NCBI GenBank assembly: GCA_026985095.1
Contig: JALSQW010000019.1
Span: 6,785-70,784 of the forward strand
Direction: 5' to 3'
Length of the DNA: 64,000 bases
Source of the DNA: Acidimicrobiia bacterium
Lineage (GTDB): Bacteria > Actinomycetota > Acidimicrobiia > Spongiisociales > UBA5794
The position numbers were made by a program, and so were the translations under genes. The notes under the pieces were generated by a model. It was not told the DNA's origin, did not search any database, and saw only the letters and a program-made list of their open reading frames with translations. Shown here piece after piece: positions 4,391-59,413 of this stretch (positions are counted from its first letter, which is position 1; every line of letters begins with the position of its first letter).

Positions 4391-4538
4391 CCACACCCCT
4401 CCAGGGGGTTCCCCAACCCAGGGTTCACCACACCCCTCCAGGGGGTTCCCCAACCCAGGGTTCACCACACCCCTCCAGGGGGTTCTCCAACCCAGGGTTC
4501 ACCACACCCCTTCAGGGGGGTCCCCAACCCAGGGTTCG
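4391..4538. repeat. Four tandem copies of a 37-bp unit (CCACACCCCTCCAGGGGGTTCCCCAACCCAGGGTTCA). Each unit contains two short palindromes (CCCCT-CC-AGGGG and AACCC-A-GGGTT).
   Basis: Direct reading: units at 4391-4427, 4428-4464, 4465-4501 (one C to T change) and 4502-4538 (degenerate). The array lies in the divergent intergenic region between the XdhC-N gene and the membrane protein gene at 4627. Confidence 0.85.
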
Positions 4539-4626
4539 CGGAGACGGTGCGGCGGTGGGGAACCGACTCGCCGTCGGCGGCGAGGCGGTTCATCATGCAG
4601 GAACCCGATCACACGAGGAGCCTGAC

Positions 4627-5355: not shown

Positions 5356-5364
5356 CCTCGATCC

Positions 5365-6537
5365 TCAACGCCCGACCGCTCCTCGACGGGCCGGAACCGA
5401 CTCGAGGAGCCGGACGACCGTTCGCAGGTCCTGGACCGACGCCGCGGCCAGGAGATCGTCGACATGAGGAAGCACCGCCCGCATCCCCCGGGTCTCCGGT
5501 GCGTAGCCGGCGCGCCCCGCCAGCGGATTCAGCCAGATCACCCGATGCACGGACCGGGCGAACCGAGCCATCTCCGTGGCGAGCAGCTCCGGATCGCCGG
5601 TATCCCACCCGTCGGAGATCACCAGACCGATCGCGCCACCACGGGTGACCCGGCGCGACCATTCCCAGTTGAAGGTCCGCAGCGCCTCCCCGATCCTGGT
5701 CCCGCCCGACCAGTCCTCCACCGCCAACGACGCCTCCGAGATCGCCTCGGCCGGGCTCCTGCGCCGCATCTGCCTGGTGATCCGCGTCAGGCGCGTCGCG
5801 AACACGAAGGACTCCAGCCGACCCAGCCGTCCCTGAGCGGCATGGACGAAATGGAGGAACATCTCGGTGTAGCGCTCCATCGACCCGGAGATGTCGGCGA
5901 GGACCACCAACGGCCTCCGCCGGACCCGCGGGGCCCGGTACGACAGCTGCATCAGATCGCCCGACGGCCCGGCCAGGTTGCGAAGCGTCCGCCGAAGATC
6001 GGGACGGGATCCGTCCCGGGCGCCTCGCCACCGTCGGGATCGGGCATCGGCCGGGCGCCACACCATGCGAGCGATCAGGGCGCGGACCTCCTGCGCCTCC
6101 TCGTCGTCGAGGTCACCGAAATCCCGACCCGCGAGACGCTCCATGTACGAGCCTCCCACGATCTCCTCGATCATCGTCACGTCCCCGGCGACGTCCCCGA
6201 CGCCCTTGGACAGCACCGGCAGGGTCACGCGGACCGGATCTCCGTCGCCGGGAAGCGCCACCGTCTCGACGTCCCTCCGATCGACGACCGAACCTTCTCC
6301 GAAGAACCGATCGAAGACCTCGTCGAAGATCGGTCGTTCCGCCGGACGAACGACCGTCACCGCCCGGAACGCCGACCGCAGATCCTCACGATCGACCAGC
6401 CCGACGGCATCGACCGCGTCCGCCAAGGTGGCGGCCGTCCCCGGCCCGACCGCCATCCCTCGACCGCGCAGGGCTCGGACGAAACGCACCAGGTTCCGAC
6501 TCGCCACCGCGCCGTCGAGCGGACCGCCCTCGATCAC
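5365..6537 (-). CDS. coxE: VWA-domain protein of the CoxE family (CO dehydrogenase maturation)
   Basis: 390 aa. C-terminal von Willebrand A domain with a MIDAS-like motif (VVLADISGSM...VISDGWDTGD). The CoxE-like N-terminus pairs with the adjacent MoxR ATPase. Confidence 0.85.
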   Translation of the reverse strand: MIEGGPLDGAVASRNLVRFVRALRGRGMAVGPGTAATLADAVDAVGLVDREDLRSAFRAVTVVRPAERPIFDEVFDRFFGEGSVVDRRDVETVALPGDGDPVRVTLPVLSKGVGDVAGDVTMIEEIVGGSYMERLAGRDFGDLDDEEAQEVRALIARMVWRPADARSRRWRGARDGSRPDLRRTLRNLAGPSGDLMQLSYRAPRVRRRPLVVLADISGSMERYTEMFLHFVHAAQGRLGRLESFVFATRLTRITRQMRRRSPAEAISEASLAVEDWSGGTRIGEALRTFNWEWSRRVTRGGAIGLVISDGWDTGDPELLATEMARFARSVHRVIWLNPLAGRAGYAPETRGMRAVLPHVDDLLAAASVQDLRTVVRLLESVPARRGAVGR

Positions 6538-7445
6538 GACCAGAGCTCGTCGAGCCCCGCCGCGCGCACCCGTTCGACGTCCTCCTGGTACTTGAGCACG
6601 ACCCCGAGGGTCTCATCGACCACGTCGGCATCCAACTCGTGGACCCCCAAGATCCGCAGGGCGCCGGCCCAATCCAGCGTCTCGGCCACCCCAGGCGGCT
6701 TGAACAGGTCCATGTTCCGCAGGACCGTCATCGCCGACGAGAGCTGCCCAGCCAGCTCCTCATCGACCTCGGGAGCCTTCTGACGCAGGATCGCCATCTC
6801 CCGCTCGAAATCCGGGTAGTCGATCCAGTGGTAGATACATCGACGCTTCAGGGCGTCGTGGATCTCCCTCGTCCGGTTCGACGTGATCACCACGACCGGA
6901 GGGACCACCGCCTTGACGGTCTCCACCTCGGGGATCGTCACCTGGAAGTCCGATAGCAGCTCCAGGAGGTACGCCTCGAACTCCTCGTCCGCCCGGTCCA
7001 ACTCGTCGATCAGCAGCACCGGTCTGCGTCCCTGCGCCGCCAACTCGATGGCCTTGAGCAGCGGCCGGGCCACGAGGAACTCCCGCGACATGATGTCGGT
7101 GACCTCGGCGTGATCACCGCCGGATTCGAGCAGCCGGATCGCCAGCATCTGACGGGCGTAGTCCCATTCGTACAGCGCATGGGCCACATCGAGACCCTCG
7201 TAGCATTGGAGCCGGATCAGCTCCTCGTCGAGCATGGAGGCCAGCACCTTGGCGACCTCGGTCTTGCCGACCCCGGCTTCCCCCTCCAGGAACAGCGGCC
7301 GGCCCATCTGCAGAGCCAGGTGGATCGCCACCGCCAGGTTCCGGTCCGCGACGTACCGCTGCGCGACGAGCGCCTCCTGAACCGCGTCGACCGTCTCGGG
7401 GATCACGGACACGAGGGTATCAGCGTCCGCCGGTGCGCGACACAC
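6534..7445 (-). CDS. coxD: MoxR-like AAA+ ATPase (CoxD family)
   Basis: Walker A GEAGVGKTE and Walker B LLIDELDRA. This is a typical MoxR/CoxD family protein. The true start may be a few codons internal to the track start. Confidence 0.88.
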   Translation of the reverse strand: MCRAPADADTLVSVIPETVDAVQEALVAQRYVADRNLAVAIHLALQMGRPLFLEGEAGVGKTEVAKVLASMLDEELIRLQCYEGLDVAHALYEWDYARQMLAIRLLESGGDHAEVTDIMSREFLVARPLLKAIELAAQGRRPVLLIDELDRADEEFEAYLLELLSDFQVTIPEVETVKAVVPPVVVITSNRTREIHDALKRRCIYHWIDYPDFEREMAILRQKAPEVDEELAGQLSSAMTVLRNMDLFKPPGVAETLDWAGALRILGVHELDADVVDETLGVVLKYQEDVERVRAAGLDELWS

Positions 7446-24389: not shown

Positions 24390-26759
24390 ATGCCAGACCT
24401 CTTCCTCGGAGGGCCGGTCGACCCCACGACGGGCGACCGGATCGACAACGAACGACTCCTCTACGACGCCTCGGACCTGACGACCCACGGGGTGATCGTC
24501 GGGATGACCGGATCGGGCAAGACCGGCCTCGGGGTGATCTTCCTCGAGGAGGCGCTGAGGGCCGGCATCCCCACCCTCGTCCTCGATCCCAAAGGTGACA
24601 TGACGAACCTGGCGCTGCGGTTCCCCTCCCTGGCTCCCGAGGACTTCGAGCCGTGGATCGATCCCGCGGTCACCGCCGACGCGGGCACCACCGTGGTGGA
24701 ACTGGCGACCGAGACGGCCCGACGCTGGCGCGACGGTCTCGCCTCGTGGGGGCTGTCGGAGGACGACATCGCCGAGCTCGACCGCTCCTCGGAGGTGACG
24801 ATCTACACGCCCGGATCGTCCGCCGGCGTTCCGCTCGACATCGTCGGTAGGCTCGACGTCCCCGACCTCGACTGGGAGACCGACGGAGAGACGATCCGCG
24901 ACGAGATCCAGGGGTTCGCCTCCGGCCTTCTCGGGCTCATCGGGATCGACGCGGACCCGGTCACGTCCCGGGAGCACATCTTGATCTCGAACCTGGTCGA
25001 GCGTGCGTGGAGAGACGGCCGGTCCCTCGATATGGCCACGCTGTTGGGATGGATCCAGCGTCCGCCGATGCGCAAGCTCGGCGTGTTCGACGTCGATGCG
25101 TTCTTCCCTCCCGACGATCGGATGGAGCTCGCCATGCGCCTCAACGGCCTCCTCGCCTCACCGGGCTTCGCCACCTGGATGGAAGGCGAACCGCTCGACA
25201 TCCAACGGCTCTTGTGGGACGGCGAGGGACGACCCAAGGCAGCCGTCGTCTACCTCGCCCACCTGACCGAGGAGGAGCGTCAGTTCGTCGTCACCTCGGT
25301 CCTGACCAAGGTCGTCACCTGGATGCGTTCCCAAAGCGGCACCGGCGAGCTGCGAGCTCTCGTGTACATGGACGAGGTGTTCGGGTTCGTCCCTCCGACG
25401 GCGATGCCGCCGGCCAAGAAGCCCATCCTGACGCTCCTCAAGCAAGCACGTGCCTTCGGGGTGGGCCTGTTGCTGTCCACCCAGAACCCCGTCGACCTCG
25501 ACTACAAGGCCATGTCCAACGCCGGCACCTGGGCCATCGGGAGGCTGCAGACCGAACGTGACAAGGCCCGGATCCTCGAGGCGCTCCGTTCGGCCGGCGG
25601 CGACGTCGATGTCGAGGAACTCGACGCGCAGATCACGGGTCTCGGGAAGCGACGGTTCCTCCTCCACGACGTCCACGAACCCGCGCCCGTCCCGTTCACG
25701 ACCCGCTGGGCGATGTCGTACCTCCGAGGGCCGCTGACGAAGGATCAGATCGAGACGCTCACGGCCCGTCGTCGGCCATCGAACGACGCGGGGCGTCGAA
25801 CGCCGCGACGAACCCAGCCCGCGACCTCGACGCTGCCCGACGACGTCGTCCCCGCCATGCCCCCGATCGCCGACGGGATCCCGGTCGCCTTCGTCGACGC
25901 GGCCGCGCCCTGGGCACAAGAACTCGGTGCCGATCCGACCTCCCACGTCTGGGAGGCGGGACTGGCGGCACGGGTGACCGTCCGCTACGACGAACGACGA
26001 GCCGACATCGATCACGTCGAGGAATGGGAGGCCATCTACTTCCCCGCCCCCGAGCCGTTCGACGCCTCGTCCGGCATCGAGGTGGACTACGACGAACGGG
26101 ATCTCCAGAAGGAGGCGCCGCCCGAGGCCGGCTACCGACTGCCTGCCGCCCCCGTCGACGATCCCTCGTACTTCCGAGACGCGAAGAAGGCCATCGCCGC
26201 GTTCCTCCGGCGGGAATCCACCCTCGAGATCCTCCACAACGCCGCGCTCAAGCTCTGGTCCCGACCGGGGGAGGATCTCACCGGCTTCCAGGCACGGTGC
26301 GTCGCGGTGGCCGAGGACCGGATCGACGAGGAGCTCGCCAAGCTCAGAGACCGGTACGCGACGAAGGTCAAGACCTTGCAGCGGAGGCTCCGGCGCGCCC
26401 AACAGCGTGCCGCCACCGCCGAGGAAGCGGCGGAGGCTTCCCGTCAGGAGGAGCTGATGGGCCAGGCCGGAGCCGTCGTCGACCTCCTGCTGGGTCGTCG
26501 GCCCCGCCGGTCGGTGGCCGCCCGCTCGCGCAGCCGTCGCAGCGCCATCGCTCGCGCCGAAGCAGCCCAGGAGAAGGTCCTCGACGTTCAGGAGGACCTG
26601 GCCGATCTGGAGGCCGATCTGGCCGACGACGTCGAAGAGATCACCGACCGGTGGATGGCACGAGCAGCCGAGATCGAATCGGTGGACATCGGACTGGAGT
26701 CCGATGACATCGACGTCCGAGAGCTCCGGGTCGTCTGGGTTCCGGTCCCGGTGGATTGA
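24390..26759 (+). CDS. FtsK/HerA-superfamily P-loop ATPase (DUF87/HerA-like central domain) with long coiled-coil C-terminal region
   Basis: Walker A GMTGSGKTG, Walker B LVYMDEVFGF, and an LLSTQNPVDLD motif that resembles the ATQRP motif of HerA/FtsK/VirB4 ATPases. The C-terminal third is Ala/Glu/Arg-rich and predicted coiled-coil. Confidence 0.7.
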   Translation: MPDLFLGGPVDPTTGDRIDNERLLYDASDLTTHGVIVGMTGSGKTGLGVIFLEEALRAGIPTLVLDPKGDMTNLALRFPSLAPEDFEPWIDPAVTADAGTTVVELATETARRWRDGLASWGLSEDDIAELDRSSEVTIYTPGSSAGVPLDIVGRLDVPDLDWETDGETIRDEIQGFASGLLGLIGIDADPVTSREHILISNLVERAWRDGRSLDMATLLGWIQRPPMRKLGVFDVDAFFPPDDRMELAMRLNGLLASPGFATWMEGEPLDIQRLLWDGEGRPKAAVVYLAHLTEEERQFVVTSVLTKVVTWMRSQSGTGELRALVYMDEVFGFVPPTAMPPAKKPILTLLKQARAFGVGLLLSTQNPVDLDYKAMSNAGTWAIGRLQTERDKARILEALRSAGGDVDVEELDAQITGLGKRRFLLHDVHEPAPVPFTTRWAMSYLRGPLTKDQIETLTARRRPSNDAGRRTPRRTQPATSTLPDDVVPAMPPIADGIPVAFVDAAAPWAQELGADPTSHVWEAGLAARVTVRYDERRADIDHVEEWEAIYFPAPEPFDASSGIEVDYDERDLQKEAPPEAGYRLPAAPVDDPSYFRDAKKAIAAFLRRESTLEILHNAALKLWSRPGEDLTGFQARCVAVAEDRIDEELAKLRDRYATKVKTLQRRLRRAQQRAATAEEAAEASRQEELMGQAGAVVDLLLGRRPRRSVAARSRSRRSAIARAEAAQEKVLDVQEDLADLEADLADDVEEITDRWMARAAEIESVDIGLESDDIDVRELRVVWVPVPVD

Positions 26760-27228: not shown

Positions 27229-27603
27229 TCAGGACCCGTTGGTCAACGCCCAGAGGAGATCTCGGACGTCGACGATCCCGAGGAGTTCATCGGCGGTCAT
27301 CACCGGAAGATGCCGGTAGCCCGCTTCGAGCATCCACTGGGCGGCCTCGGCAACGCGCACGTCGGGTGCCATGACGTCGGGCGCCTCGCTCATCCAATCC
27401 TGAACCATCTCTCCGGAGGCGTCGTCGGCTTCGGCCAGGGCCCGGGTCAGATCGCGGTCGGTGAGGATGCCGACCATCTCGCGGTCGGCGACCACGGCGA
27501 CGGCCGAGACGTCGCGATCGAGCATGAGCGCGGCCGCGTCCGCCAGGCAGGTCTCGGGACCGACCACCTCCGTGGCGCCGCCGACCAGCGATTCCAACCT
27601 CAC
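27229..27603 (-). CDS. CBS-domain pair protein
   Basis: 124 aa with two CBS motifs (VSAVAVVADREMVGILTDRDL and HLPVMTADELLGIVDVRDLL). Confidence 0.8.
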   Translation of the reverse strand: MRLESLVGGATEVVGPETCLADAAALMLDRDVSAVAVVADREMVGILTDRDLTRALAEADDASGEMVQDWMSEAPDVMAPDVRVAEAAQWMLEAGYRHLPVMTADELLGIVDVRDLLWALTNGS

Positions 27604-27746: not shown

Positions 27747-28796
27747 TCAGACGAGGTCCTGTTCGCGGATGCCGAAGCTCGGATGGCGGAGACGGCACAA
27801 CGCGAGCTTCTCGAGCTGACGGATCCGTTCCCGCGTGAGGTTGAACTCCTCGCCGATCTCCTCGAGCGTCCTCGGCACCCCGTCGTAGAACCCGTACCGC
27901 AGCGCCAGGATCCGACCCTCCCGCTCGGGAAGCCGCTCGATCGAGATGCGGAGGCTGTTGGCGATGTCCATCTCCTCGGTCACCTTGACCGGATCGACCG
28001 CGTCCTCGTCCTCGATGAAATCACCGAGCTGGGCACCATCCTCACCGATCGGCTGCTCCAACGACACGGTGTCGGCCACACCGAGGGCGAGCTCCACCTT
28101 GGCCACCTCGACGCCCGCCTCCTCGGCGATCTCCTCCGGCTTGGGATCGCGACCGAGTTCCGCCTTGAGACTGGCCTGAGCAGCTCGCACCGCCGCCAGC
28201 GTGTCGTGGAGATGCACGGGGATGCGAACGGTCCGGGACTTGTCGGCGATGGCCCGAGTGATCGCCTGACGGATCCACCACGTGGCGTACGTCGAGAACT
28301 TGAACCCCTTGCGCCAATCGAACTTCTCGACCGCCCGGATCAACCCCAGGTTCCCCTCCTGGATGAGATCGAGGAAATCGATCCCGGAGGTGTTGGCGTA
28401 ACGACGAGCATTGGCCACCACGAGGCGCAGGTTGGCGGTGAGGAAGGCATCCTTCGCCTCCTGGCCACGCCTGACCTGGCGGCGCAGGGCGATCTCCTCC
28501 GCCTTGCCCTGGTACTCGCCCGCATCGAGCTTCTCCTGGGCACGTTGACCGCCCTCGATCTTCTGGGCGTACTCGACCTCCTTCTCGGCGGTCAGCAGCT
28601 CGTACTCGCCGATCGCCGTCAGGTACTGGCTGACCAGGTCGGTGGTGAGCCTGCCACGGTCGTCGGTGAGCTTGTTGCGGTCCCGATCACGTCGGGTCCG
28701 GGTCAGCGTGTCCCGCTCGATCCGTTCCTTGGCTTCCTCCCGTTCGCGCTGCGCGCGAGTCACCACCGCCTTGCGCGGCTTTCCCACTGACGCCAT
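27747..28796 (-). CDS. RNA polymerase sigma-70 factor, group 1/2 (RpoD/SigA-SigB-like)
   Basis: Regions 1.2 to 4 are present: region 2 [30 protein letters not shown] and region 4 [25 protein letters not shown] used the internal ATG at 28796 behind a GGAGG Shine-Dalgarno. Confidence 0.85.
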
Positions 28797-29024
28797 GTAC
28801 GAGTCCTCCAGCGAAGGTTTCCGAACCACCAGCCCCCGATCCCGTACGGGGCGGGACACGAGCGCACCCCACTATCACATACGACGGGCCGTTTGTGAAC
28901 CCCCTGATTTCCCAGGAGGCAGCGAGGTCGCCAGCCTATCGGCGGGAACCAGGTAGCCGCAGCCGACCACCACACCGCCACACATCCACTCAACCGGCCG
29001 AGATCCCCGACCGATGAGCATCGG

Positions 29025-39252: not shown

Positions 39253-39855
39253 ATGAGCAACGCACCGAAGAAGACCCGATCGAAGCGGCCGGCCGCCCAG
39301 CAGCGGCAGACCCCAACCACCCCTTCGCCGTGGCCCAAACGCATCCTCGTCGGCCTCGGCACGATCGTCGGCCTCGCGCTCGTCGTCATGATCGCGTTCC
39401 AGCCCCAACCCCTCCGCGGGGTACCCGACGGGACCGAGGAGGTCGCCGTGGCGTCCGGGCAACACGTCGACGCCGACATCTACGGCGCCGACGAGGTCCC
39501 CGCCGGCGGGCCGCACTCGTCCATCTGGCAGAACTGTGGGTTCTACGACCAGCCGATCGAAGCCGAGAACGCGACCCACTCTCTCGAACATGGCGCCGTC
39601 TGGGTGACCTACCGTCCCGGCGACGTGGACGGCTCGACCCTGAAGCGGTTCGTCGGTCGAGTCGACAAGGTGATCGTCAGTCCGGTGGCCGGTCAAGAAG
39701 CGCCGATCATGGCCACCGCCTGGGGTCATCGCCTCACGTTCGACGACCCCGACGACCCGAAGCTCGAGCAGTTCGTCAACGAGTTCAAGGGATCCAGCGA
39801 AGCTCCCGAGCCCGCAGGCGCCTGCAACGGTGGCGTGGGCCAGCCCAGCTTCTAG
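39253..39855 (+). CDS. DUF3105 domain-containing membrane-anchored protein
   Basis: N-terminal TM helix, then [35 protein letters not shown], which matches the DUF3105 family. This is a recollection-based call. Confidence 0.7.
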
Positions 39856-39941
39856 ACCGGCGTCCGACATCGCGACCGAACCACACGCCCCCTGGCGTGC
39901 ACGCGGACACCCGGCGGCGTCCATGGCGCATCCCTCGACGC

Positions 39942-39993
39942 CAGACACCGGTACCGTGGGACGATGACAGACACCGGTACCGTGGGACGATGA
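39942..39993 (+). repeat. Perfect 26-bp tandem duplication (CAGACACCGGTACCGTGGGACGATGA x2) overlapping the start codon of the downstream gene
   Basis: Read directly. Copy 2 contains the annotated ATG (39990). Copy 1 supplies an upstream ATG (39964) that opens a 9-codon uORF ending in TGA at 39991-39993, overlapping the main ATG (ATGA). Confidence 0.8.
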
Positions 39994-42062
39994 ACCGACT
40001 GGCCGATGCAGCATCTCCCTACCTGGCCCAGCATGCCGACAACCCGGTCGACTGGTACCCGTGGAGCGACGAGGCGTTCGCCGCGGCCCGGGACCGCGAT
40101 GTCCCCATCTTGCTGTCGGTCGGCTACTCAGCATGCCACTGGTGCCACGTCATGGCCCACGAGTCCTTCGAGGACCCCGAAACGGCCGACTACCTGAACG
40201 CCCACTACGTCAGCATCAAGGTCGACCGAGAGGAACGTCCCGACGTCGATCGCATCTACATGGACGCCGTCCAAGCCCTCACCGGCCGAGGTGGCTGGCC
40301 GATGACGGTCTTCCTCACTCCCGACGGCCGTCCGTTCTACGGTGGCACCTACTTCCCCAAGAGCCCGCGGCCGGGCATGGTGTCGTTCCGCCAGCTCCTC
40401 GAACGCATCCATGAGCTGTGGGAACGCGAGCGCCACGCCCTCGTCGACCAGGCCGACCGTCTGACCGCGGCGATCCGCGAGGCCGTGCCGCCGGCAGGCG
40501 ACACCCCGCACCGAGAAGCCCTCGACCAGGCCATCGACCGGATCTCGGCGACCTACGACGGCGAGCTCGGTGGGTTCGGGAACGCACCGAAGTTCCCGCA
40601 GCCCTCCACCCTCGAGTACCTGCTCCGCTACGCCGCCATCGGAGGCGATCCCGATCGGCGGGCCTTGGCCACCCGGATGGCGACCGTCACCCTCGACCAC
40701 ATGCAGCGAGGCGGCATCCACGATCAGCTCGGTGGGGGGTTCGCTCGCTATTCGGTCGACCGGCACTGGTTGGTGCCGCACTTCGAGAAGATGCTCTACG
40801 ACAACGCCCTCCTGGCGCGGGTCTACCTCCGGGCATGGCAGATCACCGCCGACACGACCTTCCTGGCCACGGCACGCTCGACATATGGGTATCTCCTGTC
40901 CGATATGTCCGATCCCCTCGGTGGATTCCACTCCGCCGAAGACGCCGACTCCGAGGGGACCGAGGGGCGCTACTACGTGTGGACCTGGGAGGAGCTCGGC
41001 GCCGCTGTCGGGGACCGTCGCGACATCGCCGCCCGTATCTACGGCGCCACCCCGGAAGGGAACTTCGACGGAGCCAACATCCTCCATCTCCCCCGGCCAC
41101 TGCCCGAGACCGCCCGGCTCCTCGGTGTCGACGCGGATCAACTCGCGATGGTGAAAGCGTCCATCGACGACGATCTGCGAGCCGCCCGATCCGCGCGGAC
41201 TCGTCCCGACCGGGACGACAAGCTCGTGACCGCCTGGAACGCGTTGGCGCTCCGTTCCTTCGCCGAGGCGGCTGCCATCTTGGACGACCCCGCCTACCTC
41301 GCCGCCGCCACCCGCATCGCCGAGTACCTGGTGGATGCCGCAGCCGAGCCCGACGGCCTCCGCCGGAGCCGCCGCGGGCACCAGCTCGGACCGCGCGCGT
41401 TCTGTGACGACCATGCGGCCTCGGCCATCGGCCTGTTCACGCTGTTCGGCGTCGACGGGAACGAACGGTGGTTCCGAGCCGCCGAGCAACACGTCGCCAC
41501 CCTCCTCGGGGACTTCGCCGATCCCGACGGCGGGTTCTTCGCCACCCGCGCCGACGGCGAGACCCTCATCGCTCGACCGAAGAACCTCCAGGACAGCCCG
41601 GTTCCCTCCGACAACGCGCTCGCGGCCGAGGCGCTCCTCATGCATCATGCACTCACCGGCGACGACGACGCCGTCGTGGCACTCGAAGCCACGGTCCGGG
41701 CCGCCGCCACCACCGCGATCGCGCATCCGACCTTCTCGGGTCACCTCCTCGCAACGTGGCTCACCTACACCGCCGGCATCGACGAGGTCGCCATCGTCGG
41801 AGACGCCGAACGTCGGCGACCCCTCGAGCGGGTCGTGTGGGAACGGTTCCGGCCCACCGCGATCGTCGCCGTCGGCGACGGCACCCCCACCGACGTCCCG
41901 CTCCTGGAGGACCGTCCGGGCGGGGCCACCGCTACCGCCCACGTCTGCCACGACCTGATCTGCGAGCTTCCCGTGTCCGATCCCGACGCGCTCCGCGTGC
42001 TGCTCGAGACCCGACCGACGACCTCGCCAGGTCACCGCCGAGATCCCGAAATCCTTGGCTAG
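39990..42062 (+). CDS. Thioredoxin-domain protein of the DUF255/YyaL family (N-acylglucosamine-2-epimerase-like six-hairpin C-terminal domain)
   Basis: [69 protein letters not shown] is the canonical DUF255 thioredoxin-like N-terminus. Only the 3' 690 aa of the 910-aa track ORF is used. Confidence 0.85.
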
Positions 42063-42089: not shown

Positions 42090-43139
42090 ATGACGACATC
42101 GGTCGATCTCCCACTCTGCGTCTTCTGCGGCACCGCACGACCTGCCGACATCTCCCGCTGCCCCACCTGCGGCCGGACCTGGATCGACATCCGGGTCGGA
42201 GAAGCCGTCACCGTCGGCGTCGGTGTCGCCAACGGCACCGAACCCGCCCCCACCGTGAGACCGGTCGCCACTGCACCGACCGCCGAGGAACCCGACCACG
42301 TCACCGAGGAGATCCCGATCGTGGCTGCGCCGGTGGACGCCCCGGGCGACATCGACCCGTGGGAGCCACCCAAACGACAGCGTGACCTCTCGAAATGGGC
42401 GATCCCCGCCATCCTCGCGACCGCGGTTCTCGTCGTCTATGGGCTCATCGCCTCCGGCCTCCTCGACGGCGACGAACCGGCCGGGACCACGACCGCGTCG
42501 GTCGTGCCCGTCACCACGCTGCCCCCGGCACCCGAGACGACCGTACCGACCACGACCGAAGTACCCACCACCACCGAGGCCACGACCACGACGACCACCA
42601 CGATCCCCGCCCCCGGGCCGGACGCGTTCGCCGCCTCCGGCTCACCCATCGCGCCCTCGCAGCTCGATCTCAAGGCCGGAGGCATCGGACCTCTCGCCAT
42701 CGGCGCCCCGCTCGGAGAGGTCGCGGGCCGCCTCACCGCCAGTCTCGGCACCCCCGACGAGACCGGATACGCCACCGCCGAAACCGGCCTGTGTCCGGGC
42801 ACCGACGGCCTCTGGGTCCGGTGGGGCTCATTGACGGCGCTCTTCGCAGGCGATCTCGACACGGGAACGTTCGCCGGTTACCGCTACGAGCATCCCTCGA
42901 CCGGTCCGACGGACCAGGCGACGCTGGAAACGCTGTCCGGACTGACCCTCGGCGACACGGTGGCCGACCTCAATCGCATCTACTCGGCCTACCGGATCGT
43001 CTACGGTCCCGTCGACGGTCGCCTCGCGTTCGAGCTGTACGACGGCGACGAGCTGCTCCTGTGGGGTCCCGTCAGCTCCGCAGAGGACACGGGCACCGTC
43101 CTGGGCATCTACTCGCCGATGGTGTGCGCCGAGAACTGA
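42090..43139 (+). CDS. Hypothetical bitopic membrane protein: cytoplasmic C4 zinc-ribbon, one TM helix, Thr/Pro-rich linker, conserved extracytoplasmic two-Cys domain (paralog A)
   Basis: CVFCGT-x9-CPTCG N-terminal zinc ribbon. TM helix AIPAILATAVLVVYGLIASGLL. Linker TTTASVVPVTTLPPAPETTVPTTTEVPTTTEATTTTTTTIPAPGP. The C-terminal domain shares GRLTAS.G.P, G.C.G, ETLSGL..GDT, LLLWGPV and VLGI..P.VC with the protein at 45190. Confidence 0.6.
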   Translation: MTTSVDLPLCVFCGTARPADISRCPTCGRTWIDIRVGEAVTVGVGVANGTEPAPTVRPVATAPTAEEPDHVTEEIPIVAAPVDAPGDIDPWEPPKRQRDLSKWAIPAILATAVLVVYGLIASGLLDGDEPAGTTTASVVPVTTLPPAPETTVPTTTEVPTTTEATTTTTTTIPAPGPDAFAASGSPIAPSQLDLKAGGIGPLAIGAPLGEVAGRLTASLGTPDETGYATAETGLCPGTDGLWVRWGSLTALFAGDLDTGTFAGYRYEHPSTGPTDQATLETLSGLTLGDTVADLNRIYSAYRIVYGPVDGRLAFELYDGDELLLWGPVSSAEDTGTVLGIYSPMVCAEN

Positions 43140-43218: not shown

Positions 43219-45153
43219 ATGCCAGCGCACCGCAACCGATCTCGACTGCGCCGCATCTTCGCACCCGGCAACGTCCTCTCCGTCGCTGCCGGCACGATCG
43301 TCTTCGTCCTCGGGGTCGTCGGCTGGCCGACCAACCGTGGCGCGTTGATCTCCGCGATCGTCGCGGCGACGGTCTCCGGAGCGGTCTGGCTCGTCTGGTG
43401 GAGGACGTCGAGCCCCCCTCGGCTCGATCGACTCGTCTCGGCCGATGAGCTGGGATCCATCCCGACCGACGACTCCAGTCCCGCCCCGACCATCGCCGAC
43501 CCGACCTCCGGAAGCGCCGACTCGTACCGGCGGACCCTGTCGGCCCTCGAGAGCAGAACCCACGGCCAGGTCCTCCTCGTCACCTCGCCATCACCCGGGC
43601 AAGGAGCGACCACCGTCGCCATCAACCTCGCGGCCGCGGCGACCCAAGCCGGCCGTCGGGTGCTCCTCGTCGACGGAGACCCCGCCCGCGGAGGGGTGTC
43701 TCGGTTCCTCGGCACCGGCCCCGAACCGGGCCTGACCGACCTCGCGGAAGGAGCCGACCTGGGTGATGTCGCCCGGCTGTGGGAGGTCGGACCCGACGCG
43801 CTCCTGCCGGTGATCCCGTCGGGTTCCGCCTCCGACGATCCCGCCGAGGTGCTCTCGAACCCGCGGCTGGGCGAGATGATCGAACGGGTCGGAGAGCGAG
43901 CCGACCTGGTGCTCGTGGACTCGCCGCCGGTCCTGTGGAACGGAGCATCGGGACCCCTCGCGACCCATGCCGACGGGGCGCTCCTCGTCGTCTCCGAGCA
44001 CGCGCCGCGCGACGGGGTCTCCGAGACGGCCGAGCGTCTCGAGGCCGCCGGAGCGCCCGTCCTCGGGTACGTGGTGAACCGTGCGGACATGCGGAGTCGG
44101 TTCTGGCGGCACCCGCTGGTTCGGGCCGCCAAGCGGACCCTCGGCGCCTTCGTCGTCATCGTCACCTTGTACGCAACCTTCACCGGCGCCCAGCTCCTGC
44201 GGTCCTGGCAGGACGTCGACCGTGGCATCCTCAACGTCGACGCGGCACAGTCCCTGCTCCCCCTCCCCGAGATCGGCCCCGATCTCATCGAAGGTGACGG
44301 CGGCACCAACGAGGAGCTCGCCGGTTTCGTCGTCGGCACACCGGCGACCGGCGAGACCCAGGCCTTCCTGGTGATCGGCGGCGACCAGGTCGCCGGCGCT
44401 GCCGACGTGATCATGCTGATGGTCCTCCCCGGCGACGGGTCCAAGCCCTTCATGGTGTCGCTCCCCCGCGACCTGTACCTGCCGAATCGTTGTACCGGGG
44501 GCTACACGAGGATCAACGCCACCATCCACGGCTGCGACGACATCAGCGGACCGACGCTCCTCGCCTTGACCGTCGAGGATTTCACCGGGATCGAGGTCGA
44601 CCACTTCGCGATGTTCGACTTCGAGGGGTTCAAGCGGATCATCGACGGCGTAGGCGGAGTCGAGATCTGCGTCGAGTACCCGGTCCGGGACAGCAAGTCC
44701 GGCCTCGACCTTCCCGCCGGATGCACCAACGCCACCGGCGAGCAGGCCCTCGCCTGGGTTCGTTCGCGCCATACCCAGCAGAAGGTCGACGGCCGGTGGC
44801 GCTCGGTGCCCGGAGCCGGAGATCTTCTCCGCAACCAGCATCAGCAAGAGGTCATCTTGCAGTTGTTCTCGAAGCTCAAGACCTTCGACTCACCGTCGGA
44901 TCTGACCCGCAAGGTCGCCGAGCTCAGCGACAACTTCACGCTCGACGACCAGCTGGGCCTTACCGACGCCATCGCCCTCGCGTGGCAGCTCCGTGACCTC
45001 GACCTGAAGGACATCAACCGCCTGACGATCCCTGTCAGGCTCACCAGCAACAAGAAGGGCCAATCGATCCTCGTTCCGACGGCACCGTTCGCCGACGTCC
45101 TCGCCGAGGCCTACCCCGACCTCGCCGGATCTCCCTCGGCAGCCGCCAACTGA
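43219..45153 (+). CDS. Fusion protein: Wzz/CpsC-like TM hairpin + degenerate BY-kinase (CpsD/Wzc-like ParA/MinD-fold) domain + TM helix + extracytoplasmic LytR-CpsA-Psr (LCP) phosphotransferase domain
   Basis: Two N-terminal TM helices. The BY-kinase catalytic-domain pattern has K to A in Walker A (LLVTSPSPGQGATTVAINLAAAATQAG, nt 43597-43611 read as GGA GCG ACC), Walker A' RVLLVDGDPARG, Walker B DLVLVDSPPV, then LLVVSEHAPRD...VLGYVVNRAD. No C-terminal Tyr cluster. A third TM (LGAFVVIVTLYATFTG) precedes the LCP domain (FLVIGGD...VIMLMVLPGDGSKPFMVSLPRDLYLP...DHFAMFDFEGFKRIIDGVGGVEICVEYPV...GEQALAWVRSRH). Confidence 0.85.
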   Translation: MPAHRNRSRLRRIFAPGNVLSVAAGTIVFVLGVVGWPTNRGALISAIVAATVSGAVWLVWWRTSSPPRLDRLVSADELGSIPTDDSSPAPTIADPTSGSADSYRRTLSALESRTHGQVLLVTSPSPGQGATTVAINLAAAATQAGRRVLLVDGDPARGGVSRFLGTGPEPGLTDLAEGADLGDVARLWEVGPDALLPVIPSGSASDDPAEVLSNPRLGEMIERVGERADLVLVDSPPVLWNGASGPLATHADGALLVVSEHAPRDGVSETAERLEAAGAPVLGYVVNRADMRSRFWRHPLVRAAKRTLGAFVVIVTLYATFTGAQLLRSWQDVDRGILNVDAAQSLLPLPEIGPDLIEGDGGTNEELAGFVVGTPATGETQAFLVIGGDQVAGAADVIMLMVLPGDGSKPFMVSLPRDLYLPNRCTGGYTRINATIHGCDDISGPTLLALTVEDFTGIEVDHFAMFDFEGFKRIIDGVGGVEICVEYPVRDSKSGLDLPAGCTNATGEQALAWVRSRHTQQKVDGRWRSVPGAGDLLRNQHQQEVILQLFSKLKTFDSPSDLTRKVAELSDNFTLDDQLGLTDAIALAWQLRDLDLKDINRLTIPVRLTSNKKGQSILVPTAPFADVLAEAYPDLAGSPSAAAN

Positions 45154-45189: not shown

Positions 45190-46104
45190 GTGAGCGATCC
45201 CCGCGAACCCTACGAACCGAATCCGCCCGGCTGGACCGATCCGTACGCCGACCTGGCGGATCTGACCGGCGACGAGCCCATGCCGCGACTCGAGGATCCC
45301 TCGGTACCCCCGGCCCAGCCGCCCGCGTCACCGCTGCTCACGGGACTCATCATCGGGCTCCTGCTGATCGCGCTGTCGGTGGCCGTCTTCCAGCTCCTCG
45401 GAAAGGACGCCACCGACGAAGCGACCGCCCCCGGCACCGCCACGACGGCGCCGGGCGTCACCGCACCGGGCGACGCCACGTCGACCACCGGCGGCACCGG
45501 CAGTTCCACCTCGACACCGGGCACCACCGTCACCACCCTTCCATCGACGCCGTACCCCCCGATCGAACCTGCCATCCCGGTGGATCGTCTGAAGCTGATG
45601 AGCAACGGGATCCGGGTCAACAAGAACGATGTCAAGGATTTCGTCTTCGGAACCCCCGCAGGGGACGTGATCGGTCGACTCACCGCCAGCTTCGGCAGCC
45701 CCAGCGAGGACACCGGATGGCAGGTGTCGACCGGCCGATGGGGGGTCTGCGAAGGCGACCAGGAACGGATCATCCGCTTCGGACCGTTCCATGCGATCAT
45801 CACCCAGCCCGGCGGCAAGGACACCTTCAACGGCTACCGGCAGGACATCACCGTCGGGGATCTCGACTCGCCCGCCAAGGACTTCGAGACCCTCAGCGGC
45901 CTCAAGGCCGGCGACACGATCAAGCAGCTCGAGGAGATCTACGCCAACCAGGACGTGACGTACTCGACCGATCCTCTCCTCGGCGACATCTTCGAGCTTC
46001 GGTCCAAGCAATCGAGCGAGCTGCTGCTGTGGGGTCCGGTCCGGGGGATCTCGGAGGACGATCAGGTCCTCGGCATCTTCGCTCCCGACGTCTGCGACCG
46101 CTGA
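45190..46104 (+). CDS. Hypothetical bitopic membrane protein with Pro-rich cytoplasmic N-terminus, one TM helix, Thr/Gly/Pro-rich linker and the same conserved extracytoplasmic two-Cys domain (paralog B)
   Basis: TM helix LLTGLIIGLLLIALSVAVFQLL. Linker ATAPGTATTAPGVTAPGDATSTTGGTGSSTSTPGTTVTTLPSTPYPP. The C-terminal domain aligns with paralog A (GRLTASFGSPSEDTG...GVCEG...FNGYR...ETLSGLKAGDT...LLLWGPV...VLGIFAPDVC). Confidence 0.6.
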   Translation: MSDPREPYEPNPPGWTDPYADLADLTGDEPMPRLEDPSVPPAQPPASPLLTGLIIGLLLIALSVAVFQLLGKDATDEATAPGTATTAPGVTAPGDATSTTGGTGSSTSTPGTTVTTLPSTPYPPIEPAIPVDRLKLMSNGIRVNKNDVKDFVFGTPAGDVIGRLTASFGSPSEDTGWQVSTGRWGVCEGDQERIIRFGPFHAIITQPGGKDTFNGYRQDITVGDLDSPAKDFETLSGLKAGDTIKQLEEIYANQDVTYSTDPLLGDIFELRSKQSSELLLWGPVRGISEDDQVLGIFAPDVCDR

Positions 46105-46145: not shown

Positions 46146-46874
46146 ATGGAGCGACACCCAGCTGCAGCCTTCATCAACGGCGCCGTGGCAGGCACCGTCA
46201 TCGCCCTCGGCCTGGCCGTCTGGTTCACGGCGTTCGTCGCGACCGAGACGGTCACCGCCGTCGAGCTCGCCCCTGGGGTGGCCCAACCGGTGTTCGTCGC
46301 CACCGCCACGTCGATGTGGCTCCTCGTGGTGGTCGTGTCGTTCCTCGGCGGTCTGGCGCTGACCGGGTTGGCGTACGGGATCGGCAGGATCCTCGAGCCC
46401 GAGGCACGGCGCTTCCCGCTCCGGTACCTGATCCCGATCGGCGTGATCTTGTCGATCGTCCTCGGGTTCGCAGCGACCGCGTTCTCCGTGACCGTTGCCG
46501 GCGACATCTCCATCGACGGGATCGTGACCATCCCGGTGGGGACGATGTTCATCATCGCCGGGATCGCCGGCCTAGTCGTCGGTACCATCACGGTACCCGT
46601 CGTCGACGCCCTGGCTCGACCCGCGGTGGTCGGCGGGAACGAGGCGTTGCCGGCATCCGCACGGGACGTGTGGACCGACATGGCCCGGGCCGTCGGGGTA
46701 CCCCTCATCGCCGTCATCATCATCGTGCTGCTGGCCGTCTCACTCGCCCAGGTGCTGTTGAACTCGCCATCGCCGACCGTGTCGGTCGCGGTGTTCGCCC
46801 TCGTGGCAACAGCCATCCTCGGAGGGACCACGGCCCTCGCGCTGCGCCCGTGGGATCGGAACGGAACGACCTGA
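46146..46874 (+). CDS. Hypothetical polytopic membrane protein (about 6 TM helices), last gene of the four-gene plus-strand module
   Basis: 242 aa, strongly hydrophobic, with no recognised family. 42 bp downstream of paralog B on the same strand. Confidence 0.5.
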   Translation: MERHPAAAFINGAVAGTVIALGLAVWFTAFVATETVTAVELAPGVAQPVFVATATSMWLLVVVVSFLGGLALTGLAYGIGRILEPEARRFPLRYLIPIGVILSIVLGFAATAFSVTVAGDISIDGIVTIPVGTMFIIAGIAGLVVGTITVPVVDALARPAVVGGNEALPASARDVWTDMARAVGVPLIAVIIIVLLAVSLAQVLLNSPSPTVSVAVFALVATAILGGTTALALRPWDRNGTT

Positions 46875-59317: not shown

Positions 59318-59413
59318 CGCGGAGGTGGACGGGAATCGAACCCGCCAGGGCACATGCGCACCCTCACCGGTTTTGAAGACCGGGGGACCCACCAGGCGTC
59401 CGGACACCTCCGC
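59318..59413 (-). tRNA. selC: Candidate selenocysteine tRNA (tRNA-Sec, anticodon UCA), about 95 nt with long variable arm
   Basis: Hand fold of the minus strand: GCGGAGGTG...CACCTCCGC forms a perfect 8-9 bp acceptor stem. Anticodon stem CCGGT/ACCGG with loop CTTCAAA (U33, anticodon TCA, A37). 7-bp variable-arm hairpin AGGGTGC-GCAT-GTGCCCT. T-arm GGCGGG-TTCGATT-CCCGTC. Discriminator G, no encoded CCA. The D-arm folds only as a 4-bp stem by hand, so the call needs software confirmation. Confidence 0.6.

What the first reader, a model, noticed from the sequence alone, without database searches (positions are those of the whole stretch)
43219..45153. Single polypeptide fusing a CpsC/CpsD-like BY-kinase module with a dead Walker A to an extracellular LCP (LytR-CpsA-Psr) domain
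The protein has two N-terminal TM helices. A cytoplasmic domain then matches the bacterial tyrosine-kinase (Wzc/CpsD) catalytic fold motif by motif: Walker A context TSPSPGQGATTVAINLAAAATQAG, Walker A' RVLLVDGDPARG, Walker B LVLVDSPPV, and the LLVV...VLGYVVNRAD tail. The invariant Walker-A lysine is an alanine (codon GCG at 43606-43608), and no C-terminal tyrosine cluster is present. A third TM helix and a complete extracytoplasmic LCP domain replace the tail. The predicted topology (in, TM1, out-loop, TM2, cytoplasmic pseudo-ATPase, TM3, LCP outside) is self-consistent. CpsC, CpsD and CpsA are separate proteins in capsule loci. This fusion with a catalytically disabled kinase suggests the kinase domain was repurposed as a cytoplasmic nucleotide-sensing or scaffolding module for an LCP glycopolymer or protein glycosyl-phosphotransferase.
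Basis: partly seen in the sequence, partly recalled or inferred. Interest (0 to 1): 0.82.

Follow-up and report, generated by a model that had tools for sequence, protein, structure and literature searches.

The report
Dead tyrosine-kinase domain fused to LCP ligase
One membrane protein of uncultivated Acidimicrobiia joins a catalytically dead copy of the bacterial tyrosine-kinase domain (inside the cell) to a cell-wall glycopolymer ligase (outside). The fusion is conserved in hundreds of species, which suggests the dead kinase is a built-in scaffold or control module for wall assembly.

Summary
Window 43219-45153 (+) is a 644-aa ORF. Its order is an N-terminal TM hairpin, a cytoplasmic BY-kinase-fold domain, a third TM helix and an extracytoplasmic LCP domain. 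PDB BY-kinases are the best sequence matches (E 8e-24), and PF03816 scores E 1.6e-32.

The Walker-A lysine is Ala130 (GCG 43606-43608). That position is never Lys or Arg in 68 aligned homologues, 83 genomic loci or any of the ~7 clusters at 50% identity. The Tyr cluster, the Wzc-Y569 equivalent and the EX2RX2R motif are also absent. Walker A' and B and the LCP catalytic arginines are kept. The dead domain is under purifying selection (dN/dS 0.11).

At least 449 species-level genomes carry a relative. The best 80 are all MAGs, almost all labelled Acidimicrobiia or Actinomycetota. Databases name the protein only "LCP family protein", and I found no paper describing the fusion.

- There is no CpsC/Wzz-like part; the hairpin loop is about 5 residues.
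- The gene is not in a capsule locus. It sits in a conserved cassette between two paralogous bitopic proteins with poly-Thr stalks and a membrane protein, next to the cytochrome oxidase operon.

Best reading: a BY pseudokinase acting as a non-catalytic scaffold or regulator of an active LCP transferase. This is a new variant of known kinds.

The parts
43219..45153 (+). Whole gene: 644-aa BY-pseudokinase-LCP fusion protein
   Evidence: ORF and translation. More than 120 full-length homologues and 80 genome loci. AF2 model mean pLDDT 87.4.
43264..43407 (+). TM hairpin (TM1 aa 16-35, ~5-residue loop W-D/P-T-N-R-G, TM2 aa 39-63); N-terminus is R-rich and cytoplasmic
   Evidence: Hydropathy and charge distribution. 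AF2 helices. Conserved W36, T38, G41 and invariant W57. No Wzz domain.
43408..43563 (+). Juxtamembrane linker (aa 64-115) with conserved L78-G-x-I-P82, P88-A-P90 and the A-Y103-R helix typical of the N-terminal lead-in of BY-kinase domains
   Evidence: Column counts. AF2 places a beta strand at 77-81 and a helix at 98-113. These align to Wzc 485-530 and BceF 34-80. The EX2RX2R motif is not conserved.
43564..44094 (+). BY-kinase-fold domain (aa 116-292), catalytically dead
   Evidence: NCBIfam TIGR01007 E 5.6e-24. PDB BY-kinases E 1e-24 to 1e-15. Foldseek 4jlv TM 0.87. dN/dS 0.114 against L004.
43585..43614 (+). Degenerate Walker A, S-P-S-P-G-Q-G-A130-T-T; Ala (GCG 43606-43608) replaces the catalytic Lys
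   Evidence: Aligned to BceF PGIGKS and Wzc PSIG(K540M)T. The position is A56/T5/S5/P2 in 68 sequences and A70/T6/S3/P2/Q1 in 83 loci. It is S/A/T in all distant clusters.
43660..43680 (+). Walker A' (V-L-L-V-D152-G-D154), retained
   Evidence: D152 82/82 and D154 80/82.
43906..43929 (+). Walker B (L-V-L-V-D234-S-P-P), retained here; D->N in 11 of 82 relatives
44113..44211 (+). TM3 (aa 299-331), which takes the place of the C-terminal Tyr-cluster tail of BY-kinases
   Evidence: AF2 helix 299-331. Hydropathy peak 308-327, with 6 K/R before it. 0 Tyr in aa 286-306 in 79 of 83 relatives.
44353..45126 (+). Extracytoplasmic LCP (LytR-CpsA-Psr) phosphotransferase domain (aa 379-636) with four invariant Cys (425, 439, 484, 502)
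   Evidence: PF03816 E 1.6e-32. TIGR00350 scores 93 against a cut-off of 62. Best PDB match is A. oris LcpA 5v8c, E 4.4e-19; Foldseek E 2.9e-18. R417, R515, R517, R538, D389, D396 and D418 are invariant.
42090..43139 (+). Upstream co-conserved gene (349 aa): cytoplasmic CxxC...CxxC zinc ribbon, one TM, Pro/Thr-rich stalk, C-terminal ~165-aa domain
   Evidence: Paralogue of the downstream gene (38% identity, E 2e-25). Present immediately upstream in 63 of 70 evaluable loci, 61 of them with the zinc ribbon. No Pfam or NCBIfam family.
45190..46104 (+). Downstream co-conserved gene (304 aa): highly conserved cytoplasmic N-terminal peptide (NPPGWTDPYADL...), one TM, poly-Thr stalk, C-terminal domain with the YfeY/DUF1131-like fold
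46146..46874 (+). Fourth cassette gene: 242-aa polytopic membrane protein of unknown family
   Evidence: Found downstream in most loci with enough flank. No Pfam or NCBIfam hit.

Best explanation
The gene encodes a three-pass membrane protein in which two known modules are covalently joined.

Inside the cell, a Wzc-type chassis has lost its periplasmic domain. What remains is a TM hairpin, a juxtamembrane strand and a BY-kinase-fold domain. That domain cannot phosphorylate: it has no Walker-A Lys, no Tyr-cluster substrate tail, no Y569 equivalent and no EX2RX2R ring motif. It is therefore a BY pseudokinase.

Outside the cell, after TM3, sits an LCP phosphotransferase with its catalytic Arg and Asp set intact. 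I take this domain to do the chemistry: transfer of a polyprenyl-pyrophosphate-linked glycan-phosphate onto peptidoglycan or another envelope acceptor.

My commitment on mechanism is that the pseudokinase works as a non-catalytic assembly and control module, as proposed for EcpK and HfsB with their PCP-2 partners. It would set the oligomeric state or partner set of the LCP domain through protein-protein contacts at the cytoplasmic face. The most likely contacts are the conserved cytoplasmic tails of the two flanking bitopic proteins, which are always encoded beside it. Mg-nucleotide may still bind in most members and stabilise a closed conformation, but phosphotransfer is not involved.

Shown: the architecture, the topology prediction, the family-wide loss of kinase determinants, the retention of LCP catalytic residues, purifying selection, and the conserved cassette.

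Inferred: LCP activity and its substrate, the scaffold role, and the interaction with the neighbours.
For: Architecture and homology.

Kinase-dead state across the family:
- Lys position never K or R in 68 sequences, 83 loci or the distant clusters P0121-P0127.
- The nearest conventional kinases, P0135 and P0138, keep GK[TS] and Tyr clusters.
- The Y569 position is Gly, and 79 of 83 relatives have 0 Tyr between the kinase-like domain and TM3.
- The O-motif is not conserved.
- Mutating the Walker-A Lys abolishes or greatly reduces ATPase and kinase activity in ExoP, Wzc and VpsO (PMC9800525).

The domain is still functional: dN/dS is 0.114, mean pairwise identity is 0.51 against 0.58 for the LCP domain, and motif columns are more conserved than the domain average.

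The LCP domain looks competent: R417 matches LcpA R149 (essential), R538 matches R265/R266, and R515, R517, D389, D396 and D418 are invariant.

Precedents: BY pseudokinases acting as scaffolds are described in PMC12004946. Functional cooperation between the BY-kinase activator CapA1 and the ligase LcpC is described in PMC6441080.

Conserved cassette with cytoplasmic motifs on both neighbours.
Against: - No interaction, oligomerisation or enzymatic data exist, and all members are from uncultivated organisms.
- The EX2RX2R ring motif is lost, so a Wzc-like octamer is not assured.
- 56 of 82 members keep an otherwise intact nucleotide site. That would also fit a true ligand-gated switch rather than a passive scaffold.
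- No glycopolymer synthesis genes are linked, so the LCP donor and acceptor are unknown.
- The Arg equivalent to LcpA R128 is Ala in this protein, although R128A is active in LcpA.
Confidence: 0.5

Rival explanations
1. Nucleotide-gated switch. The domain still binds ATP/ADP-Mg without hydrolysing it, and uses the bound state to report cytoplasmic energy or precursor status across the membrane, turning the LCP domain on or off.
For: G127, G129, [ST]131, T132, D152, D154 and D234 are all kept in the window protein and in 56 of 82 relatives. The P-loop columns are more conserved (0.76) than the domain mean (0.63). Wzc K540M still binds ADP or ATP-Mg and closes and oligomerises (3LA6; PMC9800525).
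Against: 26 of 82 relatives carry further lesions: Walker B D->N in 11, T132->R in 10, and fully scrambled P-loops in L031, L037 and L050. The rest of the protein and the cassette are nonetheless conserved in them. Ala in place of Lys usually weakens nucleotide binding in P-loop proteins (general knowledge).
Confidence: 0.25
2. Trans-membrane substrate-recruitment receptor for protein glycosylation. The two flanking bitopic proteins are the LCP acceptors, glycosylated on their poly-Thr stalks as GspA is by A. oris LcpA. Their conserved cytoplasmic tails dock on the pseudokinase so that the stalks are presented to the LCP domain outside.
For: The closest solved LCP is A. oris LcpA, the protein-glycosylating member. 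The neighbours have mucin-like poly-Thr/Pro stalks and very conserved cytoplasmic N-termini, a zinc ribbon in one and NPPGWTDPY in the other. Gene order is conserved in nearly all loci.
Against: The similarity to LcpA may only reflect actinobacterial ancestry (29% identity). Thr/Pro linkers are common in actinobacterial secreted proteins and are usually Pmt substrates (general knowledge). There is no sortase signal or any other link to the GspA pathway. Nothing tests the docking.
Confidence: 0.15
3. Still an active kinase or ATPase that uses a non-canonical P-loop, with a basic residue supplied from elsewhere.
For: [quoted passage not shown]
Against: No K or R occurs at or next to the Lys position in any of about 150 sequences. 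There is no Tyr-cluster substrate, no Y569 equivalent and no O-motif. The active site has eroded independently in several subclades. Lys mutants of ExoP, Wzc and VpsO are inactive.
Confidence: 0.04
4. The cytoplasmic domain is a generic MinD/ParA-type positioning ATPase relative rather than a BY-kinase derivative, and it localises the LCP, for example to the septum.
For: MinD, ParA and FleN are also hit, at E 1e-11 to 1e-8. Pfam assigns only CbiA and AAA_31.
Against: BY-kinase models and structures score 10-12 orders of magnitude better. The BY-specific N-terminal helix and juxtamembrane lead-in align. Neither lysine of the deviant Walker A KGGxxK[ST] is present. The domain is tethered to the membrane at both ends.
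Confidence: 0.05
5. Assembly or sequencing artefact: a frameshift or chimeric contig fusing a kinase gene to an LCP gene.
For: None found.
Against: The same uninterrupted ORF is present in 80 independent species-level genomes and in more than 120 protein clusters from NCBI, JGI, ENA and Logan.
Confidence: 0.01

Closest known systems
BY pseudokinases EcpK (Myxococcus xanthus) and HfsB (Caulobacter), Blocher et al. 2025, PMC12004946
   Same: BY-kinase fold without a catalytic Lys or a phosphorylatable Tyr tail. They are proposed to act through protein-protein contacts in envelope polysaccharide assembly.
   Different: EcpK lacks all Walker motifs, is a soluble stand-alone protein (or is fused to a PCP-2), and partners a PCP-2 co-polymerase in a Wzx/Wzy locus of Gram-negatives. 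Here only the Lys is lost (A' and B kept), the domain is membrane-tethered at both ends, the covalent partner is an LCP ligase, the host is a monoderm actinobacterial class, and no Wzx/Wzy locus is linked.
PCP-2a BY-kinases (E. coli Wzc/Etk, BceF, VpsO)
   Same: The order TM1, TM2, juxtamembrane lead-in, P-loop kinase domain. They are the best sequence and structure matches for residues ~95-292.
   Different: No periplasmic Wzz/PCP domain (a 5-residue loop instead), no Walker-A Lys, no Y-cluster, no Y569, no EX2RX2R motif. The C-terminus continues into TM3 and an LCP domain.
CpsC/CpsD + CpsA (S. pneumoniae, S. agalactiae) and CapA1/CapB1 + LcpC (S. aureus)
   Same: The same two functional modules, a BY-kinase module and an LCP ligase, which are reported to cooperate (PMC6441080).
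   Different: There they are separate proteins in a capsule operon with an active kinase and phosphatase. Here they form one polypeptide with a dead kinase, no CpsC-like loop and no capsule genes nearby.
Actinomyces oris LcpA (PDB 5V8C)
   Same: The closest solved LCP domain (E 4.4e-19, 29% identity). It is an actinobacterial, disulfide-containing, extracytoplasmic phosphotransferase, and its catalytic R149 and R266 equivalents are conserved here.
   Different: LcpA has a single TM and a short cytoplasmic tail. Its C179-C365 disulfide is not conserved here, where two other Cys pairs are invariant. The R128 equivalent is Ala in the window protein.

Membership tests
BY-kinase (bacterial tyrosine autokinase, TIGR01007 / Wzc-CapB type) | Catalytic-domain homology (P-loop BY-kinase fold) | tested here: met
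   TIGR01007 E 5.6e-24 over 178 of 204 model positions. BY-kinases are the best PDB matches. Foldseek 4jlv TM 0.87.
BY-kinase (bacterial tyrosine autokinase, TIGR01007 / Wzc-CapB type) | Score above the curated NCBIfam family cut-off | tested here: not met
   84.8 bits against a cut-off of 108.05 (TIGR01007). All other BY-kinase models are also far below their cut-offs.
BY-kinase (bacterial tyrosine autokinase, TIGR01007 / Wzc-CapB type) | Walker A with catalytic Lys (GxxGxGK[ST]) | tested here: not met
   Ala130 in the window. Never K or R in 68 + 83 sequences.
BY-kinase (bacterial tyrosine autokinase, TIGR01007 / Wzc-CapB type) | Walker A' (hhhhDxDxR) and Walker B (hhhhD) | tested here: met
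   D152 82/82, D154 80/82, D234 71/82.
BY-kinase (bacterial tyrosine autokinase, TIGR01007 / Wzc-CapB type) | C-terminal Tyr cluster (autophosphorylation substrate) | tested here: not met
   0 Tyr between the domain end and TM3 in 79 of 83 relatives. TM3 follows directly.
BY-kinase (bacterial tyrosine autokinase, TIGR01007 / Wzc-CapB type) | EX2RX2R oligomerisation motif on helix alpha2 | tested here: not met
   The equivalent columns 98, 101 and 104 read E 7/68, R 9/68 and R 37/68.
BY-kinase (bacterial tyrosine autokinase, TIGR01007 / Wzc-CapB type) | Tyrosine autokinase activity | not testable with these tools
   Needs an in vitro kinase assay.
BY pseudokinase (sensu Blocher et al. 2025) | BY-kinase fold lacking catalytic residues and/or phosphorylated Tyr residues | tested here: met
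   Definition taken from PMC12004946.
BY pseudokinase (sensu Blocher et al. 2025) | Works with a PCP-2 partner lacking its own kinase domain in a Wzx/Wzy pathway | tested here: not met
   No Wzz/PCP domain in the protein and none in the 64-kb window or the conserved cassette.
LCP (LytR-CpsA-Psr) phosphotransferase | PF03816 / TIGR00350 domain above the curated cut-off | tested here: met
   113.2 bits against 24.6. 93.1 against 62.3.
LCP (LytR-CpsA-Psr) phosphotransferase | Conserved catalytic Arg residues (A. oris LcpA R149, R266; TagT R118, R219) and Asp residues | tested here: met
   R417 (PRD motif), R538, R515, R517, D389, D396 and D418 are invariant in 82-83 of 83 relatives. The R128 equivalent is absent in the window but is dispensable in LcpA.
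LCP (LytR-CpsA-Psr) phosphotransferase | Extracytoplasmic location after a TM anchor | tested here: met
   The predicted topology places it outside. All 4 Cys of the protein lie in this domain and are invariant. This is a prediction only.
LCP (LytR-CpsA-Psr) phosphotransferase | Pyrophosphatase / phosphotransferase activity on polyprenyl-PP-glycan | not testable with these tools
   Needs biochemistry.
PCP-2a / CpsC-type co-polymerase module | Large extracytoplasmic Wzz/PCP domain between TM1 and TM2 | tested here: not met
   No PF02706 hit at E<=1. The loop is about 5 residues.
MinD/ParA ATPases | Deviant Walker A KGGxxK[ST] with signature Lys | tested here: not met
   The sequence is SPSPGQGATT, with no Lys. 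MinD models score about 1e-12 against 1e-24 for BY-kinase models.

The most novel reading that the evidence does not exclude
The four-gene cassette is a previously unrecognised envelope machine that is core to Acidimicrobiia. The dead kinase domain would act as a cytoplasmic docking receptor that recruits two membrane proteins by their conserved tails, a zinc ribbon and an NPPGWTDPY peptide. The attached LCP domain would then phosphoglycosylate their poly-Thr stalks, or use them to place glycopolymer on the wall. That would be an LCP whose substrate choice is dictated from inside the cell by a pseudokinase.
Probability: 0.15. Interest if true: 0.8.

Novelty: new variant of a known kind. Interest (0 to 1): 0.56.

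Why it matters
- **Link between the two modules.** How BY-kinase modules talk to the enzymes that attach capsule or wall polymers is unresolved. Cooperation between CapA1/CpsC and LCP ligases has only been inferred (PMC6441080). A natural covalent fusion is 'Rosetta-stone' evidence that the two modules act in one complex. It also gives a single-chain object for structural work.
- **Wider scope for BY pseudokinases.** The concept (EcpK, HfsB) would extend from Gram-negative PCP-2 partners to a monoderm phylum and to a different partner enzyme.
- **Clue to Acidimicrobiia envelopes.** The gene and its three neighbours are syntenic in at least 80 species of a globally abundant, almost uncultured class, and at least 449 species genomes carry a relative of the fusion protein. 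The cassette is therefore probably central to an envelope whose composition is unknown.
- **Annotation.** Databases currently label the protein only 'LCP family protein', which hides half of it.

Tried and rejected
- **Capsule or EPS locus context.** I scanned about 45 ORFs of the window with Pfam. There is no glycosyltransferase, Wzx/Wzy, phosphatase or PCP, so this is rejected.
- **CpsC/Wzz domain in the N-terminus.** No hit.
- **Other BY-kinase-X fusions.** I checked the 150 best of 1.84 billion representatives, scanning ten long candidates. All are Wzz plus one or two kinase domains, none with an LCP domain.
- **A naturally split version.** P0132 is a 255-aa soluble, K-less kinase-like protein at the same syntenic slot, but its contig ends 268 nt downstream in repeat-like sequence. 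This is unresolved.
- **Promoter and terminator scan of the cassette.** Nothing above shuffles.
- **Literature.** Seven full-text searches found no description of an LCP-BY-kinase fusion. Subscription-only papers are not covered.
- **Not possible with these tools.** I could not inspect model coordinates (P-loop geometry, Cys-Cys distances) or run multimer predictions.
Full report

Window 43219-45153 (+) is an uninterrupted ATG-initiated ORF of 644 codons. Its codon usage is typical of the genome (GC3 0.87). The codon at 43606-43608 is GCG, which is Ala130.

Hydropathy gives three membrane-spanning segments, at 12-38, 40-61 and 308-327. The charge distribution fits a cytoplasmic N-terminus: 5 Arg in the first 17 residues and 6 Lys/Arg just before TM3.

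An AlphaFold2 model built on 68 homologues is confident, with mean pLDDT 87.4 and pTM 0.69. It shows helices at 16-35, 39-63 and 299-331.

**2. Identity of the two globular domains**

*LCP domain.* Residues 395-554 match Pfam LytR_cpsA_psr at E 1.6e-32, with 113 bits against a gathering score of 24.6. They also match TIGR00350 above its cut-off.

*Cytoplasmic domain.* Residues ~104-292 match NCBIfam BY-kinase models: TIGR01007 at 5.6e-24, TIGR03018 at 7.8e-24, Wzc NF008568 at 2.7e-22 and EpsG at 1.2e-20. All are far below their curated cut-offs, which means the domain is divergent.

Against PDB sequences, the 15 best hits are all BY-kinases: BceF 7.9e-24, Wzc 4e-22, then CapA1B1, Etk and VpsO. 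MinD, ParA and FleN start at 1e-11. Foldseek agrees: Wzc cryo-EM chains score E ~1e-15, and CapA1B1-ADP-Mg (4jlv) gives TM 0.87 and rmsd 2.1 A over 224 columns.

The domain therefore belongs to the BY-kinase branch, not to generic MinD/ParA. Pfam itself sees only weak CbiA and AAA_31 hits.

*N-terminal half.* No Wzz (PF02706) hit exists even at E<=1. The N-terminal half is best described as a Wzc-type chassis whose periplasmic domain is missing.

**3. The kinase is dead, family-wide**

HMMER aligns PGQG-A130-TT to BceF PGIG-K-SF and to Wzc PSIG-(K540M)-TF. The Lys position reads as follows:

| Data set | Residues at the Lys position |
|---|---|
| 68 full-length homologues, 49-95% identity | A 56, T 5, S 5, P 2 |
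| 83 genomic loci | A 70, T 6, S 3, P 2, Q 1 |
| Most distant fusion clusters (38-45% identity in the N-terminal half) | S, S, A, A, S, T |

The distant clusters came from an exhaustive HMMER search of 1.84 billion representatives. The nearest conventional kinases in that search, P0135 and P0138, keep GK[TS] and end in Tyr clusters.

Other kinase determinants are also missing:
- There is no Tyr between the last strand and TM3 in 79 of 83 relatives.
- The Wzc-Y569 position is Gly159 in 67 of 68.
- The EX2RX2R oligomerisation motif is not conserved; its three columns read E 7/68, R 9/68 and R 37/68.

According to the BY-kinase review, Walker-A Lys mutants of ExoP, Wzc and VpsO lose ATPase and kinase activity, yet Wzc K540M still binds ATP-Mg and oligomerises (PMC9800525).

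Walker A' (D152 82/82, D154 80/82), Walker B (D234 71/82) and the P-loop Gly and Thr residues are retained in the window protein. They are all retained in 56 of 82 relatives. The other 26 have additional lesions: D234N in 11, T132R in 10, and wholly scrambled P-loops in L031, L037 and L050.

**4. Dead but not decaying**

Between the window gene and its 95%-identical relative L004, dN/dS is 0.114 for the kinase-like domain (39 synonymous and 13 non-synonymous differences). It is 0.039 for the LCP domain.

Across 83 loci, mean pairwise identity is 0.51 for the kinase-like domain and 0.58 for the LCP domain. The TM and stalk segments score about 0.30.

The most conserved element of the domain is a family-specific H250-A-D-G253, with a top-residue frequency of 0.96. 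Its role is unknown.

**5. The LCP domain looks catalytically competent**

The closest solved structure is Actinomyces oris LcpA (5V8C), with E 4.4e-19 by sequence and 2.9e-18 by Foldseek.

I counted residues along the alignment. C179 falls at the published position, which confirms the numbering. LcpA R149 is essential, and it corresponds to R417 of the invariant S-x-P-R-D motif. R265/R266 corresponds to invariant R538. R128 corresponds to Ala394/395 in the window and is Arg in 27 of 83 relatives.

In LcpA, R149A and R266A abolish activity, whereas R128A does not (PMC6381275).

D389, D396, D418, R515 and R517 are invariant as well. All four cysteines of the protein (425, 439, 484, 502) lie in this domain and are invariant. 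That fits an oxidising, extracytoplasmic location, as described for actinobacterial LCPs.

**6. Distribution**

The word-indexed search returned 490 relatives. The best 120 are all 568-682 aa long, and none is split between the two domains. Where a source names them, the name is 'LCP family protein' or 'hypothetical'. The exact window protein is in NCBI, JGI and ENA without a name.

The best 80 are all MAGs. Almost all are labelled Acidimicrobiia, Acidimicrobiaceae or Actinomycetota, with a few evidently mis-binned.

At 50% clustering the fusion family is only about 7 clusters. After those the hit list goes straight to ordinary Wzz-kinase proteins. Ten long relatives that I scanned have no LCP domain.

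The fusion is thus a single, old invention that so far appears confined to one class.

**7. Genomic context**

The 64-kb window holds no polysaccharide-synthesis, flippase, polymerase or phosphatase genes. Instead the gene sits in a conserved cassette on one strand, with gaps of 79, 36 and 41 nt:
- **42090-43139.** A 349-aa protein with a zinc ribbon, one TM, a Pro/Thr stalk and a ~165-aa C-terminal domain.
- **43219-45153.** The fusion gene.
- **45190-46104.** A 304-aa paralogue of the first gene (38% identity over the C-terminal domain, E 2e-25).
- **46146-46874.** A 242-aa polytopic membrane protein.

CtaG and the cytochrome c oxidase operon follow on the opposite strand.

The same order recurs in relatives down to 38% identity in the N-terminal half (L085). 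By tblastn it is found in nearly every locus with enough flank. By motif, the upstream paralogue is present in 63 of 70 evaluable loci, 61 of them with CxxC...CxxC. The downstream paralogue is present in 64 of 72.

**8. Mechanism**

*Shown:* the architecture, the predicted topology, the loss of all kinase determinants, the retention of LCP catalytic residues, purifying selection on both domains, and the conserved cassette.

*Inferred:* the LCP domain transfers a polyprenyl-PP-linked glycan-phosphate to an envelope acceptor. The pseudokinase acts non-catalytically from the cytoplasmic side, by self-association or by docking partners, to organise or gate that reaction.

Two published results make this plausible. 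First, BY pseudokinases (EcpK, HfsB) are proposed scaffolds for their PCP-2 partners (PMC12004946). Second, S. aureus CapA1 stimulates LcpC-dependent capsule attachment, and S. agalactiae CpsC is reported to modulate LCP-mediated attachment according to CpsD phosphorylation (PMC6441080).

I rank three versions of the mechanism:
- A ligand-independent or ligand-stabilised scaffold comes first, at 0.5.
- A true nucleotide-gated switch comes second, at 0.25. For it: two thirds of members keep the site. Against it: one third do not.
- A substrate-recruitment role for glycosylating the poly-Thr neighbours comes third, at 0.15.

Residual catalytic activity, a MinD-like identity and an assembly artefact are all unlikely.

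**9. Comparison with known systems, and novelty**

The protein fails the membership tests for an active BY-kinase (Lys, Y-cluster, O-motif and curated score). It also fails those for PCP-2a/CpsC (no Wzz domain) and MinD/ParA.

It meets the LCP tests.

It meets the structural definition of a BY pseudokinase. It does not meet the contextual one, since it has no PCP-2 partner and no Wzx/Wzy locus.

I found no paper describing an LCP fused to a BY-kinase-like domain. The 2008 LCP survey notes only a small actinobacterial cluster with 2-4 TM segments, and the 2021 LCP review lists no cytoplasmic domain. Subscription-only literature is not covered by these searches.

Both modules and the pseudokinase concept are known. 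What is new is their covalent combination, the partner enzyme, the phylum and the cassette. I therefore rate this as a new variant of a known kind.

Interest is moderate to good, at 0.56. The fusion is a clean, testable Rosetta-stone link between BY modules and LCP ligases, and it is a likely core envelope component of a major uncultured lineage. Against that, it rests entirely on sequence inference, and the mechanism is unproven.

Noticed in passing
[not shown]
   Followed up: partly
window 46146-46874: A 242-aa polytopic membrane protein with no Pfam or NCBIfam match is conserved as the fourth gene of the cassette in most loci.
   Followed up: partly
L084 5001-5768 (protein P0132): A 255-aa soluble, Lys-less kinase-like protein occupies the same syntenic slot (sigma70, DUF255, up349-like gene, then this gene). 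It has no TM hairpin and no LCP domain. The contig ends 268 nt later in repeat-like sequence, so it is unclear whether a separate LCP gene follows. P0136 (256 aa) is similar.
   Followed up: partly
protein P0130 (876 aa) and P0137, P0155, P0156, P0175: The nearest non-fusion relatives include Wzz-type proteins with two tandem kinase domains. In P0130 the first has Arg in place of the Walker-A Lys (GEGRST) and the second is canonical (GEGKTT). This is a possible intramolecular pseudokinase-kinase pair.
   Followed up: no
window 43966-43977 (aa 250-253, H-A-D-G): This is the most conserved element of the dead kinase domain (top-residue frequency 0.96, D and G invariant). It is not one of the classical Walker motifs, and nothing here explains its role.
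   Followed up: no
window 39330-42062: The longest ORF (910 aa) over-extends the DUF255/thioredoxin (YyaL-like) gene. The Pfam domain starts at residue 222, and the orthologues in L001, L084 and L085 are 672-677 aa. The real start is probably near 40.0 kb. The upstream part overlaps the separate DUF3105 gene at 39253-39855.
   Followed up: partly
window 59319-59411 (-): A selenocysteine tRNA (ARAGORN; Rfam RF01852, 73.6 bits) is the only RNA gene found in the window.
   Followed up: no
window 24390-26759, 27229-27603, 27747-28859: A HerA/DUF87-like 789-aa protein and a sigma-70 factor lie upstream of the cassette in the window. HerA/DUF87-like, sigma-70 and CBS-domain genes lie in the same relative position in L001 and L002, and the first two also in L085. 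The syntenic block therefore extends well beyond the cassette. The small ORF at 27229-27603 was not scanned.
   Followed up: no
window 1998-7445: This is a cluster of CO-dehydrogenase/xanthine-dehydrogenase-type accessory genes: a 2Fe-2S subunit, CoxG, XdhC, the VWA protein CoxE and a MoxR-like AAA protein.
   Followed up: no
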